Shown here: positions 1,142 to 47,585 of the stretch, in pieces | Numbering within the stretch: the stretch's first letter is position 1 | Layout of the letters: every line of letters begins with the position of its first letter | DNA from: a virus | Lineage: Duplodnaviria; Caudoviricetes | DNA: 64,000 nt | Strand: one strand, 5' to 3' | IMG/VR virus record: IMGVR_UViG_3300034073_003276 | Made by a program: the position numbers and the translations under genes | Notes under the pieces: generated by a model | The model's input: the letters and a program-made list of their open reading frames with translations, nothing else | The model's database searches: none | What the model was told of the DNA's origin: nothing

Positions 1142-1188
1142 TTCTACTGATACTTTTTAGGTATTTATATCTCGTTTTATATCAGTCA

Positions 1189-7263: not shown

Positions 7264-8006
7264 TATGATATGCGTCTTCTATTATTTTTAGATGTATCTA
7301 TTCCTTTTCCTTTTTGATAAGAAACTACTCCAGCAGAAGTTGATACATAACCAGTCATACAACATTCCCATCTTTGTGAATTGGTAATTTTTACATTTTC
7401 TCTTCTTTCTTCGGTTGCCAGTCCATAAAGACCTACACGAAGTTCTTTTGCTCTTTGTGTTGCTTTTTTACCATCTTCACTCATTTGTTCTTTAGTTCTT
7501 CCGTGAACTCCAACACCAAGTTTATATGCGGTTAGTCCTCCATTTTTTGCATCTTCACTCATTTGTTCTTTAGTTCTTCCATGAATGCCCAATCCAAGTT
7601 CGTATGCTTTTTTTCCTCCACTTTTCCCATCTTTGGTCATTTGTTCTTTAGTCCTTGCGTGTCCTCCTATTCCAAGTTCATATGCTTTTCTTCCACCCTT
7701 TGAGCACAAATCAATAAAAACTTTACCACCAACATTTTCATTAAGACACCACTTATCGGTGTTATAAAATGGTTTTATTAATCTCTTTTCAACTTCCTGT
7801 GCTTCTATCCAACCTTCATCTGTGAAGTCAAAAAATTGAAGTATTTGCTTTTTAGGAGTATAAAATTTCCACATCCACTTATGGGTTACAGGAGTTCCCA
7901 TATAGTATTCATTAAACTTTTTTTCTTTATGAGCACCATAATAGTAATAAGAAACTTCTTCAAAGGTAATCTTATACAAGTATATTCTTGGACTTTGTGA
8001 AGTCAT
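7263..8006 (-). CDS. free-standing GIY-YIG-family homing endonuclease with C-terminal repeats
   Basis: N-terminal IYLYKIT...YYYYG motif (GIY-YIG-like); three (H)GRTKEQM(S/T)(E/K)DGK repeats. Confidence 0.65.
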   Translation of the reverse strand: MTSQSPRIYLYKITFEEVSYYYYGAHKEKKFNEYYMGTPVTHKWMWKFYTPKKQILQFFDFTDEGWIEAQEVEKRLIKPFYNTDKWCLNENVGGKVFIDLCSKGGRKAYELGIGGHARTKEQMTKDGKSGGKKAYELGLGIHGRTKEQMSEDAKNGGLTAYKLGVGVHGRTKEQMSEDGKKATQRAKELRVGLYGLATEERRENVKITNSQRWECCMTGYVSTSAGVVSYQKGKGIDTSKNNRRRIS

Positions 8007-8011
8007 AGTTC

Positions 8012-8110
8012 TGCCTTGTTGTGTGTCGTATTACTATTTATACAAGAAAAGGTGTCCGAAGACACCTAATCTCTGCTTCTGGTTACGACACACACAAGCA
8101 TTATTATTTA
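8012..8110 (-). promoter_or_regulatory. homing-endonuclease control module: TAAATA, antisense arm, UUCG terminator hairpin, TATAAATA, complementary arm over the RBS
   Basis: TAAATA 8110-8105; arm 8098-8084; hairpin AGGTGTC-TTCG-GACACCT 8067-8050; TATAAATA 8042-8035; complementary arm 8030-8015. Confidence 0.75.
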
Positions 8111-8389
8111 TGGTAGTTCTAACCTACAATTACCATTTACATCAAACACCACTTTGACTTCACATTCGTGAGTTGTGTGTGCTCTCCACATAGCATCTTT
8201 GAACTCTTCTGTTTCTTTCTCTGGATACTTGGCAACAAAATGACCATTCTCATCCATTTCATTACAATTCACATCACCAAGATAATGGAGATTGAGGAAA
8301 CGATTGAGTTGTTGCTTTTGTTCGTGGTTCAGTCGAATTCTTACAAATGTGATGAATTCGTTTGATACTGGGTATTCTTCGTTAGTCAT
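8108..8389 (-). CDS. hypothetical protein
   Basis: start trimmed to MTNEEY. Confidence 0.6.
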   Translation of the reverse strand: MTNEEYPVSNEFITFVRIRLNHEQKQQLNRFLNLHYLGDVNCNEMDENGHFVAKYPEKETEEFKDAMWRAHTTHECEVKVVFDVNGNCRLELP

Positions 8390-25727: not shown

Positions 25728-25801
25728 TACCCGCAGTCGGATTCGAACCGACACTGGAGGAGTTTTAAGCTCCCTATCTCTGCCTGTTGGATTATGCGGG
25801 C
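25728..25801 (-). tRNA. trnL: tRNA-Leu(TAA)
   Basis: acceptor GCCCGCA/TGCGGGT, anticodon arm GGGAG-CT TAA AA-CTCCT, T-arm GTCGG TTCGAAT CCGAC; short variable loop; no encoded CCA. Confidence 0.85.
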
Positions 25802-25805
25802 AAGG

Positions 25806-25879
25806 TGCAGGTTGTGGGGATCGAACCCACCTTAGGCGAATTATGAGTTCGCTGCTTTCAACCAGAGAGCTAAACCTGC
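25806..25879 (-). tRNA. tRNA with CAT anticodon (elongator Met or Ile2)
   Basis: acceptor GCAGGTT/AACCTGC, GCGAA-CT CAT AA-TTCGC, GTGGG TTCGATC CCCAC; G1-C72 pair argues against fMet. Confidence 0.85.
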
Positions 25880-26301: not shown

Positions 26302-26353
26302 TATGGTGTTATGAAGTTATACATATACCTATTTATAAAATGATATATGTAAG

Positions 26354-34188: not shown

Positions 34189-35838
34189 TTACATCACCAC
34201 ATTGTAGTTAAGTTGTGAGTAGAGCACATAGAAATTATCAGTGTTTGAAGATGGTATAAATGGCACATCAGTTAAAGGTTCTTGTTGAGAAACCATTGTC
34301 TGGGTTCTATCTTTTCCACCACCTGCCATAATAATATTTGGTTTTGCTTCAGGTAAAGTGCCAACAGGTGTATTTGGTTTTGGCGGTGCTTGAATATCTG
34401 CAGCAGGTGCTTTTTCTTGAAGTAAACCTTCAAGATTTACTGTGCCATATGGAGGTGCTGTTTCTTGTGTTGGTGATTGTGCTGGACCTTGTAGCATATT
34501 TGCAGTATCTACCCCAAATGTCATTTCAGACATTGATGGTATTGCAGGTGTTTGTGGTTGTGATGGTGCTGCTACTTGTGCTGCTGGTGGTGCTGGAGTT
34601 GCTGCTGGTTGTGCGGATGGCTGTGCTGCTGTTGGTGTTGGTTGGTCTTCTTTTTTGCCAAAGAATGTGCCCTTTCCAAATCCAAATTCTCTTGCTACAT
34701 CCAATCCAGCAAATCCTAATCCAATACCAGGAATTGCAGATCCATAAGATAATAAACCACCAACAATGTCTCCTTGCGAAATTCTATAAGTTCCAACACC
34801 AATTGCCAATGGAGTAAGAATTTTAGAAGCAATACTACCAGTACCCTTTAAAAAACTCCGAGCGCCCTTTCCTATATTATTAACGCCTCCCAAAAATCTT
34901 GACATTGGACTACCTGCACCCAATACCTTTCCACCACTGGTAGTAATAGGTACTCTTCCACCGGGTCTTGTAATTGTTTTTGCTGCGTTAGCACCAAACC
35001 CAAGTAGTCTTCCAATTGCAGCACCTGCTAATCTAAACGGTGCCAGAGCGATTCTAGCAACAAAACTTGCCAACTTAAGAGTCAATCCAGTAATGGTTCT
35101 CATTAAGAGACCGAATCCTAGATTTACAGCAGCAAAAGCACCTATTGCAAATAATACATTCTTAATGACATTGTTTTTAATCTCTTCAAGTTTCTTAGTA
35201 TCACCTTCAGCAAGTGCTTTTAGGGTTTCAATCCCCTGATTTGTCAACCATCCAAAGAATAATGTCGTCAAGGCACCCATTATTCGGTCAAAAAGACTTG
35301 TAACCGTTTGCTGAAGTTTAGCAATCGGTCTCATTAATGCTGCTTGAATATTTTTCTCTAATTCACTTTCCTTCCCAAGACGAACTTTACGCTCTGCTAA
35401 TCTTCTTTCTGCTTCTTGTTCTTGTTTAAGTTGATTCTGCTCTAAAGCACTTTCTGCTTGAAGTTGTTTTGCAGTGTTTTGAATTCCTTGATTTAATTCA
35501 GTTACTTGTACGCGAATAACATCAAGACTCTGCTGAAGACCTCCAATTGATTGTGCGTTTGTTTGTATTTGTAATGTCTGTGCCCTATCTACTAAACTTG
35601 TTTGTGGTCTTACTACAATCGCAGATCCTGCAGCAACTGCTCCTCCGCCACCTGCTCCACCGCCAGCGGTACCACCCCCACCACCTGCTACTGTACGACC
35701 ACCAAAAACTGATCTTGGTAATGTAGTGATTCTACCAAGAGAAAATTTTTGTAGGGTAATTCTTTCCGAGCTGGTATAGTAACCACCACTTGGCTTTTCG
35801 CCTGTTTGTGCTCTTAAACCAGCTTCTGCCCTATCCAT
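34189..35838 (-). CDS. tape-measure-like / baseplate hub-associated protein
   Basis: 549 aa, coiled coil plus Ala/Gly-rich amphipathic segments; position downstream of gp51. Confidence 0.55.
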   Translation of the reverse strand: MDRAEAGLRAQTGEKPSGGYYTSSERITLQKFSLGRITTLPRSVFGGRTVAGGGGGTAGGGAGGGGAVAAGSAIVVRPQTSLVDRAQTLQIQTNAQSIGGLQQSLDVIRVQVTELNQGIQNTAKQLQAESALEQNQLKQEQEAERRLAERKVRLGKESELEKNIQAALMRPIAKLQQTVTSLFDRIMGALTTLFFGWLTNQGIETLKALAEGDTKKLEEIKNNVIKNVLFAIGAFAAVNLGFGLLMRTITGLTLKLASFVARIALAPFRLAGAAIGRLLGFGANAAKTITRPGGRVPITTSGGKVLGAGSPMSRFLGGVNNIGKGARSFLKGTGSIASKILTPLAIGVGTYRISQGDIVGGLLSYGSAIPGIGLGFAGLDVAREFGFGKGTFFGKKEDQPTPTAAQPSAQPAATPAPPAAQVAAPSQPQTPAIPSMSEMTFGVDTANMLQGPAQSPTQETAPPYGTVNLEGLLQEKAPAADIQAPPKPNTPVGTLPEAKPNIIMAGGGKDRTQTMVSQQEPLTDVPFIPSSNTDNFYVLYSQLNYNVVM

Positions 35839-35872
35839 TCGATTGATTCTTCAGGGTTTCTTCTTCAATATA
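35831..35872 (-). pseudogene. remnant of the original gp51 3' end (YIEEETLKNQSNG*)
   Basis: parallels the current gp51 end YIEEENLKNNQNS*; its stop overlaps the ATG of the next gene. Confidence 0.65.
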
Positions 35873-35886
35873 AGTTATTTATTTGA

Positions 35887-35985
35887 TAAATATGAATACC
35901 TGATCTGGTGGTTCTTTTCAGGTTGGGATAAAGCACCTTTGGGTGCTTTTCCTGTATAAATAGCAATAACCACCAGATTAGAGTA
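35887..35985 (+). promoter_or_regulatory. homing-endonuclease control module (second instance)
   Basis: TAAATA 35887-35892; arm 35901-35913; hairpin 35930-35949; TATAAATA 35955-35962; complementary arm 35968-35980. Confidence 0.75.
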
Positions 35986-35988
35986 ACA

Positions 35989-36618
35989 ATGAAAAATCTT
36001 AAAAGATTTTACACTTACGCATATTTGCGTGAAAACAAAACACCATATTATATTGGTAAAGGAAGTAATAATAGACTGCACAAAAGAAAAAAGAGTGATG
36101 TAAAGCCTCCAAAAGATAAATCTAGAATAATAATATTAAAACAAAATCTCACAGAAAAAGAAGCATTTAATCACGAAGAATATATGATTTATGTCTTTGG
36201 TAGAAAAGATTTAGGCACAGGTATTCTTCTTAATAAAACAAGCGGGGGCGAAGGATCAAGTGGTGCCATTCGTTCTTTAGAATTTAAATTAAATTTGAGT
36301 GAAATAAACAAAAATAAAATTCTCTCAAAGGAGCATAAAGAAAAAATAGGCAATGCACAGAAAGGAGAAAAAAATCATAATTATGGAAAATCTGCATCCA
36401 AAGAAACCAGAGAAAAAATGAGTAATGCACAATTAGGCGAAAAACATCCTAGGGCAAACTGGTGGAAACTTACTTTCTCAAATGGAAACACGATAGAAAT
36501 ATGTGGATTGCCTAGTTGGGCAAAGGAAAATAATTATAGTTGTGGAAATATTCATATGGTTTATCTAGGAAATAGAAAAAAACATAAAGACATTATAAAA
36601 GTTGAAAAAATAAGATAA
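35989..36618 (+). CDS. GIY-YIG homing endonuclease with NUMOD3-like repeats, inverted relative to its operon
   Basis: FYTYAYLRE..TPYYIGKG...R; LLNKTSGGEG; HKEKIGNAQKGEKN. Confidence 0.85.
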   Translation: MKNLKRFYTYAYLRENKTPYYIGKGSNNRLHKRKKSDVKPPKDKSRIIILKQNLTEKEAFNHEEYMIYVFGRKDLGTGILLNKTSGGEGSSGAIRSLEFKLNLSEINKNKILSKEHKEKIGNAQKGEKNHNYGKSASKETREKMSNAQLGEKHPRANWWKLTFSNGNTIEICGLPSWAKENNYSCGNIHMVYLGNRKKHKDIIKVEKIR

Positions 36619-36619
36619 T

Positions 36620-36793
36620 TTAAGAATTTTGATTATTTTTTAAGTTTTCCTCTTCAATATATTGTTGGAGAAGAGTAATGTAAACTTCCCTTTCCCAAGG
36701 TATAAGATTTTCTAGTTCAGTTAAAGACCATCGATGATGTTGTACAAGGGCAAAATTTGTCTTGTAATATGATGCAAGATCCTCATGCATCAT
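36620..36793 (-). CDS. gp51: baseplate hub assembly catalyst gp51 (57 aa), not in the ORF track
   Basis: MMHEDLASYYKTNFALVQHHRWSLTELENLIPWEREVY; follows gp26. Confidence 0.8.
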   Translation of the reverse strand: MMHEDLASYYKTNFALVQHHRWSLTELENLIPWEREVYITLLQQYIEEENLKNNQNS

Positions 36794-38391: not shown

Positions 38392-38393
38392 TC

Positions 38394-38432
38394 TAAATAC
38401 CTTATACGACTGTTTATATTATTAAGTATTTA
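38394..38432. promoter_or_regulatory. divergent pair of late promoters
   Basis: CTAAATAC on the + strand near 38393 and on the - strand near 38432. Confidence 0.6.
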
Positions 38433-38433
38433 G

Positions 38434-38871
38434 ATGTCATATAAAGGTAAATATAAACCATCATATCCAGAAAAATATAATGGTGACCCAACTAATATCA
38501 TCTATAGATCATTGTGGGAAAGAAAGTTTTGTGTATATTGCGACACCAACGAAAAAATAATTGAATGGTCATCTGAGGAAAAATGTATCCCTTATCGATC
38601 ACCTTTAGATGGGAGAATTCACAGATACTTTCCAGACTTTCTTATCAAGGTTAAAGAGTCTGATGGAAGCATCAAAAAATATATGATTGAGATTAAACCA
38701 TCGAAGCAAACTGTCCCTCCTACTAAACCAAAGAGGCAAACACAAAAATATATTGCTGAGGTCTATGAGTATGCTAAAAATCAATCAAAGTGGGAAGCAG
38801 CAAGAGAATGGTGTGCTGATAGAGGTTATGAGTTTAAAGTAATCACCGAGCACGAGTTAGGGATTAAGTAA
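38434..38871 (+). CDS. gp4: head completion protein gp4
   Basis: YKGKYKP..P.KY.GD..NIIYRSLWE; RYFPDF; EIKP. Confidence 0.92.
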   Translation: MSYKGKYKPSYPEKYNGDPTNIIYRSLWERKFCVYCDTNEKIIEWSSEEKCIPYRSPLDGRIHRYFPDFLIKVKESDGSIKKYMIEIKPSKQTVPPTKPKRQTQKYIAEVYEYAKNQSKWEAAREWCADRGYEFKVITEHELGIK

Positions 38872-40172: not shown

Positions 40173-40864
40173 TGACTTACTTCAGAGAACTACCCAACTT
40201 AGAATATCAGTCATTCCTATCAGATTCTAATTCATCTGATCAGTATTTGATTGTCAAGAATCTTTTCCGTAGAGTCAAACTGCGTGATGACTTACAAAAT
40301 GTTTTTACTGTCTTTGACAAATATCAAATTCCAGATGGGTCTAGACCAGAATTAGTTGCTCAAGAACTTTATGGTAGCACTCAATATGATTGGGTAGTCA
40401 TCGTATCTGCAGGAATCACAAGACTCAGAGACCAATGGCCACTTTCCGATAAGCAAGTTTATGATTATGCAGAGTCAATTTATGGAAATAATTTGAATGC
40501 GATTCATCATTACGAAACTACAGAAGTCAGAGACTCAGAAGATAGATTAATTCTTCCTGCTGGTCAAGTTGTAGATGCAGACTTTAAGGTTTCTTACTAT
40601 GATGATGGCACTCTTTATACAAATGATGCAACAAGATTAGGAGATGATGTGATTCGTATTCCAGATCCTATAGTAGGAGTGAGTAATTATGAGTATGAAG
40701 TGAGAAAGAATAATGATAAGAGAGGTATCTATGTATTAAAACCAAGATACCTACAGCAAGTTATTAATGACACAAGAAAAGCGATGATTTATGATAGGTC
40801 ATCGCAGTATGTAAATGATACTCTAATTAAAACTGAGAATACTAAATCAACTATTCCATTTTAA
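40172..40864 (+). CDS. gp53: baseplate wedge protein gp53
   Basis: YF..LP...Y; G.RPE.VA..LYG...YDWVV; IHHYET. Confidence 0.9.
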   Translation: MTYFRELPNLEYQSFLSDSNSSDQYLIVKNLFRRVKLRDDLQNVFTVFDKYQIPDGSRPELVAQELYGSTQYDWVVIVSAGITRLRDQWPLSDKQVYDYAESIYGNNLNAIHHYETTEVRDSEDRLILPAGQVVDADFKVSYYDDGTLYTNDATRLGDDVIRIPDPIVGVSNYEYEVRKNNDKRGIYVLKPRYLQQVINDTRKAMIYDRSSQYVNDTLIKTENTKSTIPF

Positions 40865-41440
40865 TTCTAGATTCTTATCAAAAACTATCACATAACGGTG
40901 CTTGCGGGAGCGTTCTTTCCATTCTCCCTCAGCACCTTTTACTTTTCCACGAGAGTGCTTAGTTCCGTCTGAATAGTAGAAATCTTTTTTTGGATCTGTG
41001 AGACCCATATACTTAAAGTTACAAGCGCGATAGATTGTGCCAGAATGAAAATCACTATCAGCGTAAGAGATAATTGCCTTAACTTCAGTATCTTTTCGTA
41101 ACTGTCTAATCGCTTTTGAAACAAACCAAGAAGTGATATTATACTCGCTCTGTTGAGTTTGTGGATGAATGCAGAGTCGTGAAAGTTCGAATAATCCTTG
41201 TTGTTCATTTCTCTCTAATCCAAAGGCACCTTTTGCGATTTCAGGAACAGGAAGTCCAGTGAAAATACAGACCCCAACAGGACCTCCAATATTTAACACA
41301 TCTGTAAAAGATTTTTTATATAAAGAATAATTATATCCACTTTTGAAATCTTTTGATATGTCTTTTAGATAATGGTAATTATACAATAATTCTTTTATTT
41401 CTGATTTGGGAACCCTTTGAATATAATAATCACTTTTCAT
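40847..41440 (-). CDS. Mom-like DNA modification protein (GNAT fold)
   Basis: ELSRLC, ISYAD...H.GTIY.A.NF.Y.G motifs of the Mu Mom family; start trimmed to MKSDYY. Confidence 0.7.
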   Translation of the reverse strand: MKSDYYIQRVPKSEIKELLYNYHYLKDISKDFKSGYNYSLYKKSFTDVLNIGGPVGVCIFTGLPVPEIAKGAFGLERNEQQGLFELSRLCIHPQTQQSEYNITSWFVSKAIRQLRKDTEVKAIISYADSDFHSGTIYRACNFKYMGLTDPKKDFYYSDGTKHSRGKVKGAEGEWKERSRKHRYVIVFDKNLELKWNS

Positions 41441-42101
41441 AAAAAACACTATACTTGTAAATATAATATTTTGATCTACCAGTCATTTTTACAGCATCTT
41501 TTATGCAATCATATACTACGCCATTATAGCATAGTTTTCTCGCTCTTGGATTTTTACCTCCCATTATATCTGAATTTTGAATACCCTTATTCCAAGGTTT
41601 TCTTCCCTTACAAGAATCACTTATTTTTTTCCTAACTTCTGGTCTTTTAGTTGGATTTTTATCTCCAACTAATTTTCCTCTTGCTCTTAAACCTTTTTCT
41701 ATATCTGACTGTCTTCTTTTTTCAGTAATAGTCTTTGGAGTTCCTCTATTTGCTTCTGCAATTTTTCTTTTATGAGATTCTGATAAAGGTTTTCCAAGTC
41801 TTGCTTTTCTTCTATTTTCAATATCCTTTTCAGTCATTATTTTTCCAGAACATCCATCCCCACCATTAGTTTTATTATGAAGAATTCCAGTTCCTAGATC
41901 TTTTCTGCCAAACACAGCAATCATATAGATTTCGTGATTAAATGCTTGTTCCTCTGTAAGATTTCTTTTTAAAAATAAAATTCTTTCCTTTGATGGTGGA
42001 TAAAAACTTCCGTGTTTTAAAAATGCTCTTCTACCCTTTCCCTTACCAATATAATAGGGTGTCCCATCTTCACGCAAATATGCGTAAGTATAATAGTCCA
42101 T
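41430..42101 (-). CDS. GIY-YIG homing endonuclease with NUMOD3-like repeats
   Basis: YYTYAYLREDGTPYYIGKG; HNKTNGGDG; LSESHKRKI. Confidence 0.85.
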   Translation of the reverse strand: MDYYTYAYLREDGTPYYIGKGKGRRAFLKHGSFYPPSKERILFLKRNLTEEQAFNHEIYMIAVFGRKDLGTGILHNKTNGGDGCSGKIMTEKDIENRRKARLGKPLSESHKRKIAEANRGTPKTITEKRRQSDIEKGLRARGKLVGDKNPTKRPEVRKKISDSCKGRKPWNKGIQNSDIMGGKNPRARKLCYNGVVYDCIKDAVKMTGRSKYYIYKYSVFYEK

Positions 42102-42102
42102 C

Positions 42103-42200
42103 TGCTTCTAAATTAAGGTCGCAATAGTATTTATAATAAAATAGGGTGGATTTCTCCACCCTTCTCTAAAAGTGCGACCTTGTTAGAGCATTAGTATTTA
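42103..42200 (-). promoter_or_regulatory. homing-endonuclease control module (third instance)
   Basis: TAAATA 42200-42195; arm 42181-42173; GAAA hairpin 42162-42143; TATAAATA 42135-42128; complementary arm 42123-42115. Confidence 0.75.
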
Positions 42201-42204
42201 GACA

Positions 42205-44376: not shown

Positions 44377-45046
44377 ATGATTCCAATTTATCTCTAACAA
44401 ACTCTCTAATGTATTCGGTGAGTAGTTTGATGTATTTTGTTTTGTCTCTTTCTTCATAGACGACGCATTCTCCATTTTCGCAAGCCATAATAATTACAAG
44501 TTTTTTAACTGGAATACCAGTCAGTTCGTAAAGCATACAACCATATGCCATACATTGAACAAAATAGTGTTCGATCCACTCTCGTGGTTTTGGTTTTTTA
44601 GAAGTCTTAAAGTCTATGATTGACAATTCTCCATCAAACTCTGCTATACAGTCAACAGTGCCAGCAATGCCTAGTTGTTTACTGTAGAGTGACCCTTCAA
44701 GAGCATGAATATTATTTATACGATTGAGAGTTGACTTAGAAATCTTGAATAAGAAATCAGACAGAGGTTGAACTTCTGGAAGAGTCTCATTTTTTAAATG
44801 ATACTCAACAAGTGTGTGCATATCAGTGCCACGACTTGTTGCTTGTCGAGTAATCTTATCTGCTTCTTCTTCACCAACTTTTTTTCGCCAGTTAATAAAT
44901 ATCTGGCGATTTTTATGACTGGTGACAGAAGTGATAGAAACAAGTTTGATTAATTCATGATTATCAGGAACTTTATAGTATCTTACCCCATCAATTGTTT
45001 CTCTTTCGAGTTGGGGTAAATTCAAATCAATGTGATTAAATATCAA
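44363..45046 (-). CDS. PD-(D/E)XK exonuclease
   Basis: SITSV, RGT.MH, AGTVDCIAE, IIDFKTS. Confidence 0.85.
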   Translation of the reverse strand: MIFNHIDLNLPQLERETIDGVRYYKVPDNHELIKLVSITSVTSHKNRQIFINWRKKVGEEEADKITRQATSRGTDMHTLVEYHLKNETLPEVQPLSDFLFKISKSTLNRINNIHALEGSLYSKQLGIAGTVDCIAEFDGELSIIDFKTSKKPKPREWIEHYFVQCMAYGCMLYELTGIPVKKLVIIMACENGECVVYEERDKTKYIKLLTEYIREFVRDKLESYGTQ

Positions 45047-46085: not shown

Positions 46086-46796
46086 TTATACCACATACTT
46101 CCAAACATATCCTTTATGTTTTTTCCTTTTATTTTGACAAACTAAAGTTATTTTGGAAGTTGAGGCGTTATTTTTTTCTGCGGCAATGGTCATACTATCA
46201 TAAACTTCAATTAAATTTCCATTAGTATCATATTTTCCTATTTTTTTAATTTTATGAGAGGTTCTTTTATATGAAGATATTTTTGATAGTGGTTGATTTT
46301 CAAAAGTTTTCCATTGAAACCCACCACAAGTTTGATATTCTCCTCTTATCACGGCACCAATGCCTTTACAATCTTTACCAAAAACATCATAAGAAGCATC
46401 TCTACAACTTTCATAAACATTGACTAGATTTCCATCCAAATCATAACAAGCAACTTTTTTAGAATTGCTTTGTTTAATTGCTTGTTTCCATCTATCCCCG
46501 TGCTTTTTATTGAGAAATCCACCACCGTCGCCTCCATTAGTCATATTATAATATGGTTTCAAAAGAGAGACATAATACATTTCTCTTTCATTTACTTTAT
46601 TTTCAAAACACTCTTCTATAATTTCAAATACAAAATTTTCAACACCATACTTTCTCATAGCATAATATAATTTTGTATTTCTTACTTTTGAATGAGATTT
46701 ATGCTGTCTCCATCTTACTTTTGGTCTTTTGGATTTACCAATATAAATCTGCTCATTAAGAATATTTGTTATTTTGTAAATGTAGTGTGAAACCAT
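46086..46796 (-). CDS. GIY-YIG homing endonuclease with NUMOD1-like domains
   Basis: YIYKITN...YIGKS; YNMTNGGDG; two YD..GNL..VY.S repeats; TATAAATA at 46828-46821. Confidence 0.85.
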   Translation of the reverse strand: MVSHYIYKITNILNEQIYIGKSKRPKVRWRQHKSHSKVRNTKLYYAMRKYGVENFVFEIIEECFENKVNEREMYYVSLLKPYYNMTNGGDGGGFLNKKHGDRWKQAIKQSNSKKVACYDLDGNLVNVYESCRDASYDVFGKDCKGIGAVIRGEYQTCGGFQWKTFENQPLSKISSYKRTSHKIKKIGKYDTNGNLIEVYDSMTIAAEKNNASTSKITLVCQNKRKKHKGYVWKYVV

Positions 46797-46832
46797 AATA
46801 CGATAGTTTTACTCTACCAATATTTATATAAA

Positions 46833-47585
46833 TTAGGGACTCAAACGAGCACGATGTAGTCTCTTTTCTTCATAATACTTCCAAACATTTGGAGACCACT
46901 TTTGAAGTTCTGGAGCAATTGCGTCACAAAGTGCTTGAATCTCAATTTGAGCATCAAGTTTAGAACGAAGGTCCATAAAGTGAAGAACAGAACGAAGGTT
47001 AAATGAAACTACAAAGTTTTGCCGAATTGCCTGAGGAAGATAATCACGAATATGCTCTTCACACATACCTTGCTCATAATACTCAGCATACTCCTCACAC
47101 TCACTCAGAATGCGCTCTAACTTGCGTTGTCGGTTCTCTTCGGTCCATTCATACTTCTTACCCTTACGATTGGTGTAGAATCCCTCAGGACGCACATAGA
47201 AGACATCTTCGACATCAAGTTCACGCTTAGCAACCTTTACAACTCTCTTTCCAGTATATCGTTGCGACTGAACATCCCAAGAAGTGCCAATTCGATGAGT
47301 TCTTGCCTGAACGATTACATTATGAACAAAACCAGATACCGAAAAAGTAATTCCGGGATGCTCTAATGGACCCCAGTGACCTCTTTCATTTGCGAGTAGT
47401 TGCTCTACAATCCACTCACCACATTCCTGAGGACTGGGGACCTTAACTTCGTGAATTGGTACTTCGGAATAATCACCTTTTCCTGCCTGCCAAATAACTT
47501 GTTCCGGAATCGGATAACATTGAAGTCTAACAACTTCAAGTCTTTTATCAAGTTCAAGAAGGTCTTTTGCTTTAATAGGTTTCAT
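46833..47585 (-). CDS. thyX: flavin-dependent thymidylate synthase
   Basis: HWGPLEH, QARTHR.G.S.DVQSQRY, N.RS..HF.DLR. Confidence 0.92.
   Translation of the reverse strand: MKPIKAKDLLELDKRLEVVRLQCYPIPEQVIWQAGKGDYSEVPIHEVKVPSPQECGEWIVEQLLANERGHWGPLEHPGITFSVSGFVHNVIVQARTHRIGTSWDVQSQRYTGKRVVKVAKRELDVEDVFYVRPEGFYTNRKGKKYEWTEENRQRKLERILSECEEYAEYYEQGMCEEHIRDYLPQAIRQNFVVSFNLRSVLHFMDLRSKLDAQIEIQALCDAIAPELQKWSPNVWKYYEEKRLHRARLSP

What the first reader, a model, noticed from the sequence alone, without database searches (positions are those of the whole stretch)
35887..35985. Homing-endonuclease antisense/terminator module (instance 2, plus strand)
TAAATA (35887-92), TGATCTGGTGGTT, hairpin AAAGCACC-TTTG-GGTGCTTT, TATAAATA (35955-62), AACCACCAGATTA(GAGTA), ATG at 35989. 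The promoter-to-promoter gap is 62 nt, the same as instance 1, with no sequence similarity. Because this gene is inverted against its operon, there is no upstream same-strand operon to supply arm A by read-through. That supports the upstream TAAATA being a real promoter.
Basis: partly seen in the sequence, partly recalled or inferred. Interest (0 to 1): 0.75.

Follow-up and report, generated by a model that had tools for sequence, protein, structure and literature searches.

The report
Portable control leader of homing nucleases
A 105-base control module in front of a selfish DNA-cutting enzyme gene in a T4-like cyanophage hides the gene's ribosome site by RNA pairing, as phage T4 does, but also carries its own extra promoter and terminator; because this copy is inserted backwards, that extra promoter is the only visible source of the masking RNA, which has not yet been observed.

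Summary
At 35885-35991 (+) lie GATAAATA, a 17-19 nt arm, a hairpin with a U tail, a perfect TATAAATA, the complementary arm covering the Shine-Dalgarno GAG, and the ATG of a GIY-YIG-like/NUMOD3 homing endonuclease gene.

It is one copy of a conserved portable leader:
- Six copies lie in this 89-kb contig and seven in the cultured cyanophage S-SRM01. T4 has none beyond chance.
- 69 copies were collected. All 24 modelled base pairs covary, and there are about 33 different matched arm pairs.
- The leader sits in front of at least four nuclease types.

The masking helix with a nested late promoter is the known T4 device (I-TevI, segB, mobE). Three features are new: a conserved upstream late-type promoter 5 nt before arm A, a nested terminator, and a covarying 5' hairpin that puts arm A in a loop. 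Together these would give a 53-57 nt anti-leader RNA.

Alleles without the endonuclease gene show that the whole 35839-36619 segment is an inverted insert between two overlapping baseplate genes. So P_up belongs to the cassette, and no same-strand gene can supply arm A.

No RNA data could be obtained, and leaders are exchanged between cassettes, so the antisense RNA remains inferred. This scan has found the same module before on other DNA.

The parts
35876..35883 (-). Outward-facing late-type promoter box AATAAATA for the 549-aa baseplate-region gene (34189-35838, minus strand), back to back with P_up
   Evidence: It lies 37 nt before the ATG at 35838. It is absent from alleles without the endonuclease gene, where the two host genes overlap. 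An equivalent minus-strand NNTAAATA sits beside P_up in all inverted-site relatives (read by eye).
35885..35892 (+). P_up: upstream late-type promoter box GATAAATA (NATAAATA class); predicted +1 near 35898
   Evidence: Conserved at a fixed 5-nt distance from arm A. Activity was not measured.
35897..35913 (+). Arm A, the anti-leader segment whose 5' end is the anti-SD
   Evidence: Pairs with 35968-35985. Covariation shown.
35898..35923 (+). Predicted 5' hairpin H1 of the P_up RNA: 35898-35903 pairs with 35918-35923, leaving the core of arm A in the loop
35924..35954 (+). Terminator-like hairpin (core stem 35930-35937/35942-35949, loop UUUG, tail UUUUCCUG)
   Evidence: All 7 modelled stem pairs covary. 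The simple terminator scan did not call this copy.
35898..35954 (+). Predicted 53-57 nt anti-leader RNA, running from P_up +1 to the U tail
   Evidence: Inferred. Not observed.
35955..35962 (+). P_down: perfect T4-type late promoter box TATAAATA; predicted +1 near 35968
   Evidence: 55 of 56 distinct leaders have the perfect box.
35968..35985 (+). Arm B, the 5' end of the P_down mRNA, which includes the SD GAG(U) at 35981-35984
35989..36618 (+). Homing endonuclease gene (209 aa): GIY-YIG-like N-terminus with NUMOD3 repeats
   Evidence: Pfam NUMOD3 1.1e-15. PHROG 314 'homing endonuclease' 1.4e-12. Two paralogues in the same contig.
35990..36013 (+). Local hairpin that takes in the UG of the start codon in the late mRNA
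   Evidence: (I3). Not followed up in relatives.
35836..35872 (-). Native-like copy of the duplicated target: the stranded old gp51 3' end, which overlaps the ATG of the 549-aa gene
   Evidence: compared with the endonuclease-free alleles L032-L049.
36620..36661 (-). Recoded copy of the duplicated target, now the working 3' end of the gp51-like gene; it abuts the endonuclease gene's stop codon

Best explanation
This is one copy of a self-contained, portable leader that travels with homing-endonuclease genes of T4-like cyanophages and keeps the nuclease poorly translated.

The perfect late promoter P_down (35955-62) starts the only translatable mRNA, at about 35968. Its first 18 nt are arm B plus the SD.

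Any RNA that also carries arm A (35897-35913) does one of two things. It stops at the nested terminator (35924-35954), or it reads through and folds into a 17-19 bp long-range helix that buries the SD. That second outcome is the T4 I-TevI/segB/mobE principle.

In this copy the cassette is inserted backwards between two baseplate genes. The only visible source of arm-A RNA is therefore the cassette's own upstream late-type promoter P_up (GATAAATA, 35885-92).

P_up should give a 53-57 nt RNA made of a 5' hairpin that shows the core of arm A in its loop, followed by the terminator hairpin. I infer that this RNA also pairs in trans with the 5' end of P_down mRNAs and blocks ribosome binding. That would resemble IS10 RNA-OUT acting on RNA-IN.

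Shown here: the anatomy, the selection for arm pairing, the conservation of P_up and of the 5' hairpin, the cassette borders, and the thermodynamic feasibility. Inferred: that P_up fires, that the hairpin terminates transcription, and that the short RNA accumulates and acts in trans.
For: - Fold of the read-through RNA: -42.2 kcal/mol, z = -6.3.
- The same architecture occurs at 6 places in the 89-kb contig, and that contig has no TAAATA...N50-82...TATAAATA pair outside these modules. S-SRM01 has 7 copies and T4 has none beyond chance.
- 69 copies were aligned to a covariance model. 95.8% of cells are paired, against 67% when shuffled and 36-45% when slid, and 24 of 24 pairs show compensatory changes.
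- Alignment-free test: matched arm duplexes average -22.4 +/- 1.5 kcal/mol and mismatched ones -10.3 +/- 4.3, with 33 specificity groups among 52 leaders.
- P_up: TAAATA lies before arm A in 57 of 68 leaders chosen by arm pairing alone. Its forms are TATAAATA 18, GATAAATA 9, ACTAAATA 9, TCTAAATA 8, AATAAATA 6 and CATAAATA 4. These are the forms found 16-43 nt before this phage's own late genes, and they fit the published NATAAATA consensus (PMC2984593).
- In endonuclease-free alleles the two host genes overlap by 8 nt, so 35839-36619, including P_up, is insert. No sigma-70-like plus-strand promoter is found upstream.
- The predicted short RNA folds as a 5' hairpin plus terminator in nearly all of 53 leaders. 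The hairpin starts at the predicted +1 and covaries: matched -6.5 against -4.2 kcal/mol, permutation p < 0.0002.
- Net free-energy gain when the short RNA and the mRNA fold together in trans: -13.2 +/- 2.1 kcal/mol for matched pairs, -3.7 for mismatched pairs, and -15.8 for this copy.
- The inverted-site endonuclease genes form a clade (100/95 support) that carries 5 arm types, and 11 of 17 pairs show compensatory changes inside the clade.
Against: - No RNA evidence of any kind.
- P_up is more degenerate than P_down (32% against 98% perfect boxes), so the short RNA may not be in excess.
- This copy's terminator has only four U before CC, and the simple scan did not call it.
- The comparison of pairing on the sense and antisense strands favours the sense strand only weakly (-1.1 kcal/mol, p = 0.018).
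- Leaders are exchanged between unrelated cassettes. This leader is 78/110 identical to that of a sense-oriented HNH gene in S-SRM01 but only 69/111 identical to that of its 72%-identical orthologue. Arm pairing at the inverted site may therefore have been selected elsewhere.
- In some copies the pairing runs 1-3 nt upstream of the predicted P_down +1. Those pairs would exist only in cis.
- A second leader type puts arm A in the loop of the terminator hairpin and mostly lacks a recognisable P_up.
Confidence: 0.55

Rival explanations
1. Cis-only mask of the T4 kind. The arms and terminator exist only to silence transcripts that enter from upstream genes, and P_down gives the active late mRNA. 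P_up is inactive, weak or incidental. At this inverted site the 5' half of the leader is inherited baggage with no current function.
For: The mechanism is established for I-TevI/II/III and proposed for segB and Aeh1 mobE (PMC2988022, PMC2330249). 45 of 56 classified type-I leaders sit directly after a same-strand gene, where read-through is available. Leaders move between cassettes, so the inverted copies may simply have imported them. In some copies the pairing extends slightly upstream of the predicted P_down start.
Against: It does not explain three things. First, a late-type box is kept 5 nt before arm A in about 84% of leaders, including all nine inverted-site ones. Second, a 5' hairpin that competes with the mask is conserved and covaries. 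Third, the helix begins at the predicted +1 of that box. T4 itself has no such two-box arrangement.
Confidence: 0.25
2. Transcriptional interference. P_up fires, and its polymerase runs 55 nt and stops at a terminator whose tail ends 0-10 nt before the P_down box. This occludes P_down and damps endonuclease mRNA synthesis. The arms only silence the transcripts that leak through.
For: The geometry fits. In nearly all copies the hairpin tail lies within about 10 nt of TATAAATA, with 54-66 nt between the two boxes. P_up is conserved.
Against: It gives no role to the covarying 5' hairpin or to the loop presentation of arm A. Nothing measured here bears on promoter occupancy.
Confidence: 0.1
3. DNA-level element. 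The inverted repeat would be a protein operator, a mimic of the endonuclease's target site (as for I-TevI autorepression), a cruciform, or a recombination site for cassette shuffling.
For: I-TevI binds an operator that overlaps its late promoter (PMC2988022). The leaders are clearly exchanged between cassettes. The repeat is symmetric enough that the strand test is weak.
Against: The arms differ between cassettes at the same insertion site. The arms show no similarity to the flanking target genes beyond shuffled controls. One arm always covers the SD, and the arms start at the predicted transcript 5' ends. G-U pairs are tolerated.
Confidence: 0.05

Closest known systems
RBS-sequestering hairpins with a nested late promoter in T-even phages: I-TevI, I-TevII, I-TevIII (shown); segB and Aeh1 mobE (proposed); also T4 genes e, soc, 49 (review PMC2988022; PMC2330249)
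   Same: The SD of an endonuclease gene is buried by an upstream complementary segment. A TATAAATA late promoter lies between the two arms, so the late mRNA lacks the 5' arm and can be translated.
   Different: In T4 the 5' arm is supplied by early or middle read-through from the host gene. Here the leader carries its own late-type promoter directly before the 5' arm, an intrinsic terminator nested in the loop, and a conserved 5' hairpin. It is a portable unit shared by several nuclease families, and it also occurs inverted with no upstream same-strand gene. A pattern scan of the T4 genome found no such arrangement.
   Same: A mobile element limits translation of its own enzyme with a small stable hairpin RNA. 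The loop of that RNA pairs with the extreme 5' end and RBS of the mRNA.
   Different: RNA-OUT is a true antisense transcript from the opposite strand. Here the RNA would come from the same strand, upstream, and would be complementary through an inverted repeat. Trans action is not shown.
CfrI antisense RNA of cyanophage S-PM2 (Millard et al. 2010, as summarised in PMC2984593 and PMC12197685)
   Same: A non-coding RNA associated with a homing endonuclease gene in a T4-like cyanophage.
   Different: CfrI is about 225 nt long, is transcribed from the opposite strand across the endonuclease gene and psbA, and has no two-promoter/terminator leader.
PeSL composite terminator/early-promoter cassettes of T4-like phages (PMC2839356, PMC4122927)
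   Same: Short conserved intergenic units that combine a stem-loop or terminator with a promoter. They recur many times in a genome and appear to be shuffled by recombination.
   Different: PeSLs carry sigma-70-type early promoters, flank genes of the hyperplastic regions, and have no complementary arm over a downstream SD.

Membership tests
T4-type translational mask with nested late promoter (I-TevI class) | SD (and/or AUG) held in a stable helix with an upstream complementary segment | tested here: met
   35897-35913 pairs with 35968-35985, including GAGU (z = -6.3). Covariation in 69 copies.
T4-type translational mask with nested late promoter (I-TevI class) | The late promoter box lies between the arms, so the late transcript lacks the 5' arm | tested here: met
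   TATAAATA at 35955-62 and arm B from 35968. The perfect box is present in 55 of 56 leaders. Promoter activity itself is not testable here.
T4-type translational mask with nested late promoter (I-TevI class) | The 5' arm is delivered by early or middle read-through from an upstream same-strand gene | tested here: not met
   The upstream neighbour is on the minus strand, and the whole segment is an inverted insert between overlapping genes. No sigma-70-like plus-strand promoter lies upstream.
Dual-promoter endonuclease leader ('type I' module defined here) | NNTAAATA, 5-nt spacer, arm A, hairpin with U tail, TATAAATA, 5-nt spacer, arm B over the SD, ATG of a nuclease gene | tested here: met
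   Covariance model R1 gives 75.7 bits, E = 2e-10 at 35885-35991. The 62-nt gap lies within the family range of 54-76 nt.
Dual-promoter endonuclease leader ('type I' module defined here) | 5' hairpin that starts at the predicted +1 and carries the core of arm A in its loop | tested here: met
   ACCUGA (35898-35903) pairs with UCAGGU (35918-35923). Family-wide covariation.
Trans-acting antisense RNA of a mobile element (IS10 RNA-OUT type) | The small RNA has its own promoter and a defined 3' end | not testable with these tools
   The box and hairpin are present and conserved. No transcript data.
Trans-acting antisense RNA of a mobile element (IS10 RNA-OUT type) | Complementarity to the 5' end and RBS of the target mRNA that is favourable after unfolding costs | tested here: met
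   Net free-energy gain on folding together: -15.8 kcal/mol for this copy, -13.2 on average for matched pairs against -3.7 for mismatched pairs.
Trans-acting antisense RNA of a mobile element (IS10 RNA-OUT type) | Transcribed from the strand opposite to its target | tested here: not met
   Arm A lies upstream on the same strand, and the complementarity comes from an inverted repeat.
Intrinsic (Rho-independent) terminator | GC-rich stem, short loop, run of U directly after the stem | tested here: inconclusive
   8-bp stem with 4 G-C pairs, loop UUUG, tail UUUUCC. Not called by the consensus scan. Most sister copies have clearer tails such as UUUUCUUG.
PeSL terminator/early-promoter cassette | Sigma-70-type early promoter joined to the stem-loop | tested here: not met
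   Both boxes are of the late type, and no -35/-10 pair is found on the plus strand.

The most novel reading that the evidence does not exclude
Homing-endonuclease cassettes of T4-like cyanophages each carry their own matched small RNA. A 53-57 nt transcript, made from a late promoter on the same strand just upstream, presents an anti-leader loop and represses its own nuclease mRNA in trans. Dozens of mutually orthogonal RNA/leader pairs have evolved by compensatory change and been swapped between nuclease families. This would be a natural library of self-limiting riboregulators and a new 'tandem, same-strand' layout for antisense control.
Probability: 0.4. Interest if true: 0.8.

Novelty: new variant of a known kind. 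Interest (0 to 1): 0.6.

Why it matters
Homing endonucleases must be expressed enough to spread but not enough to harm their phage. The T4 work showed one solution, a mask that depends on the host operon's transcription programme.

This leader appears to make that control autonomous. It brings its own promoters, terminator and masking RNA, so the same unit works behind gp32, behind thyX-region genes, or backwards inside a baseplate operon, and it serves at least four unrelated nuclease types.

If the short RNA is real, it adds a class of phage small RNAs with an unusual same-strand layout and many orthogonal specificities, which could be useful as riboregulator parts. It would also explain how such cassettes can invade tightly packed, even overlapping, essential genes.

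The module occurs seven times in the cultured phage S-SRM01, so the question can be tested directly.

Tried and rejected
- RNAalifold on the plain MAFFT alignment predicted no pairs, because the arms carry indels and share no sequence. I replaced it with an alignment-free test of matched against mismatched arm duplexes and a covariance-model alignment.
- Operator or target-mimic idea: the arms share no more sequence with the flanking genes than shuffled arms do. An apparent 9-nt match between arm B and the 549-aa gene, seen by eye, is chance.
- Strand test (sense against antisense duplex energies): only -1.1 kcal/mol, p = 0.018. This is too weak to settle RNA-level against DNA-level function on its own.
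- Rfam: no family matches the module.
- Sigma-70-type promoter scan: nothing on the plus strand upstream of arm A. The terminator scan did not call the hairpin.
- T4 genome: one pattern match, equal to the control count and lacking arms.
- Leader-peptide idea: one relative has a small frame ending in AUGA at the endonuclease gene's start codon, but this copy has no such frame and no conserved AUG (read by eye).
- 'Inverted clade proves selection in place': weakened after I found leader exchange.
- Gibb & Edgell 2009 (PMC2655525) is not held in the library.
- Literature searches found no description of this two-promoter leader.

Full report
**What is there.**
The window comes from an 89-kb IMG/VR contig of a T4-like cyanomyovirus with 36% G+C. 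Its nearest cultured relative is the freshwater Synechococcus phage S-SRM01. At 35885-35991 on the plus strand the sequence reads, in order:
- GATAAATA
- 5 nt of spacer
- a 17-nt arm (35897-35913)
- a hairpin with core stem 35930-37/35942-49, loop UUUG and tail UUUUCC
- a perfect TATAAATA (35955-62)
- 5 nt of spacer
- the complementary arm (35968-35985), which takes in the Shine-Dalgarno GAG
- the ATG at 35989

The ORF that follows (209 aa) has a GIY-YIG-like N-terminus, NUMOD3 repeats (Pfam 1.1e-15) and a PHROG homing-endonuclease hit. An RNA running from the first box to the start codon folds with the two arms paired around the hairpin (-42.2 kcal/mol, z = -6.3).

**It is a family, not a one-off.**
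The contig holds six such modules: window 8006-8112 (-), 35885-35991 (+), 42097-42202 (-), and three beyond the window. Every TAAATA...N50-82...TATAAATA pair in the contig is one of them. They precede GIY-YIG-like, classic GIY-YIG and HNH nucleases.

Searching IMG/VR with three of the nucleases gave 123 endonuclease 5' regions. Of these, 102 have a TAAATA box 15-45 nt before the ATG. 81 of them (56 distinct) have a second box 54-76 nt further up. S-SRM01 has seven copies, all in front of nuclease-like ORFs. Phage B3 has one or two, and T4 has none beyond the control count. Rfam has no matching family.

**The pairing is selected.**
A covariance model built from 19 copies found 69 copies. On their alignment:
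- 95.8% of cells form pairs, against 67% after shuffling and 36-45% after sliding.
- All 17 long-range pairs and all 7 hairpin pairs show compensatory changes.

That alignment is fitted to the model, so I also ran an alignment-free test. Matched arm duplexes average -22.4 +/- 1.5 kcal/mol and mismatched ones -10.3 +/- 4.3, with about 33 distinct specificities among 52 leaders.

**The upstream box is part of the module.**
I picked leaders only by arm pairing and then looked upstream. 57 of 68 have TAAATA just before arm A, where about 2% would be expected from base composition. Most of the remainder belong to a second leader type.

The downstream box is perfect in 55 of 56 leaders. The upstream box is TATAAATA in 18, and otherwise NATAAATA or NCTAAATA. 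Those are the same forms that sit 16-43 nt before this phage's own late genes. NATAAATA is the published cyanomyovirus late-promoter consensus (PMC2984593). Both boxes are followed by a similar 5-nt spacer and then a purine that begins an arm.

**The predicted short RNA has its own conserved fold.**
Taken from the predicted +1 of the upstream box to the U tail, nearly all of 53 leaders fold as two hairpins. The first is a 4-7 bp 5' hairpin that begins at nucleotide 1-2 and carries the core of arm A in a 9-14 nt loop. The second is the terminator hairpin.

In this copy ACCUGA (35898-35903) pairs with UCAGGU (35918-35923). That 5' helix covaries: matched -6.5 against -4.2 kcal/mol for other types, permutation p < 0.0002.

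Folding the short RNA together with the P_down mRNA gives a net gain of -13.2 +/- 2.1 kcal/mol for matched pairs and -3.7 for mismatched pairs. For this copy it is -15.8. If both RNAs exist, they should pair specifically.

**What the inverted orientation adds.**
In S-SRM01 and 18 IMG/VR relatives that lack the endonuclease gene, the 57-aa gp51-like gene overlaps the start of the 549-aa gene by 8 nt. In the window the whole 35839-36619 segment is therefore an insert. It brought:
- a recoded duplicate of the gp51 3' end (36620-36661), leaving the native-like copy stranded at 35836-35872
- a new minus-strand late box, AATAAATA (35876-83), for the 549-aa gene
- the leader
- the endonuclease gene

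So GATAAATA is not a native promoter, and no same-strand gene or sigma-70-like promoter lies upstream. All inverted-site relatives keep both the outward box and P_up. Their nucleases form a clade with 100/95 support. That clade carries five different arm pairs, and 11 of 17 pairs show compensatory changes within it.

This leader is 78/110 identical to that of an unrelated, sense-oriented HNH gene in S-SRM01, with compensated arm differences. It is only 69/111 identical to the leader of its 72%-identical orthologue. The arms of L010 recur in front of the distant nuclease of L092.

**Mechanism.**
The core is the known T4 device. The ribosome site is masked by an upstream segment, and a late promoter between the arms gives an unmasked mRNA (PMC2988022, PMC2330249). 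Three things are new: the cassette's own late-type promoter in front of the masking arm, a terminator nested in the loop, and a 5' hairpin that presents the arm.

My best reading (0.55) has three steps:
1. P_up fires late.
2. Most of its transcripts end as a 53-57 nt RNA, and the rest are self-masked.
3. The short RNA also masks P_down mRNAs in trans, much as IS10 RNA-OUT does. That comparison is recalled from the literature, not tested here.

The rivals are:
- a cis-only mask in which P_up is irrelevant (0.25)
- promoter occlusion by P_up/terminator traffic (0.10)
- a DNA-level role (0.05), disfavoured because the arms differ at the same insertion site and do not resemble the flanks

**Limits.**
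No transcript data could be obtained. The terminator of this copy is modest. The strand-asymmetry test is weak. P_up is more degenerate than P_down.

**Earlier scan notes.**
The scan's earlier notes show that the same module was already found in this genome and in several others, with the same open question. I reached my reading before seeing them, and I re-tested the two sister copies in this window.

Noticed in passing
window 36620-36661 and 35836-35872 (minus strand): The endonuclease insert duplicated about 35-40 nt of its target. The copy at the real gp51 end is recoded at synonymous and some non-synonymous sites. The native-like copy, with the old stop overlapping the next ATG, is stranded 780 bp away. 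The recoding may protect the genome from its own nuclease.
   Followed up: partly
window 35876-35892; L004-L011 and L129 just upstream of their modules: Inverted cassettes carry an outward-facing late box (NNTAAATA on the host-gene strand) back to back with P_up, 1-6 nt apart. It restores a promoter for the host gene that the insert cut off from its operon.
   Followed up: partly
L065, L072-L083, L124, L125, L135, L136; S-SRM01 L177 (record 77561-77637): A second leader type. The anti-leader segment sits in the apical loop of a long terminator-like hairpin before TATAAATA, and the complementary arm abuts the ATG. Most copies lack a clear upstream late box; a few have one, or a TATAAT-like box.
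   Followed up: partly
whole contig; window 1162-1169, 8035-8042, 26330-26337, 35955-35962, 42128-42135, 44713-44720, 46821-46828: Perfect TATAAATA is rare (11 in 89 kb) and belongs mostly to endonuclease genes: six are P_down boxes, one is a P_up box and one fronts the thyX-adjacent endonuclease gene. The phage's own late genes mostly use NATAAATA or TCTAAATA.
   Followed up: partly
window 46086-46796 (-), leader 46797-46840: A GIY-YIG/NUMOD1 endonuclease gene directly after thyX has a TATAAATA box but no arms, no terminator and no significant fold (z = -0.3).
   Followed up: yes
window 38392-38399 (+) and 38427-38434 (-): Two TCTAAATA boxes face outward between the divergent tail-tube-like and TnsA-N/gp4-like genes. 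Each lies at the other gene's start, so the two predicted transcripts would overlap by about 15-20 nt at their 5' ends.
   Followed up: no
window 35990-36013 (+): An 11-bp hairpin takes in the UG of the endonuclease gene's start codon in the late mRNA, and the late mRNA as a whole folds better than shuffles (z = -4.0). This may be a second, leader-independent brake on translation.
   Followed up: no
window 25728-25879 (-): Two adjacent tRNA genes (Rfam tRNA, 50-53 bits).
   Followed up: no
window 40847-41449 (-) and 41430-42101 (-): A Mom-family gene overlaps the 3' end of the gp32-adjacent endonuclease gene by 20 nt, so it may depend on transcription through the endonuclease gene.
   Followed up: no
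S-SRM01 NC_070963 192466-193167 (L180): The deposited 'homing endonuclease' CDS starts inside the leader module. The start codon after the SD-bearing arm lies about 55 nt further downstream, so the annotation is probably too long at its 5' end.
   Followed up: partly
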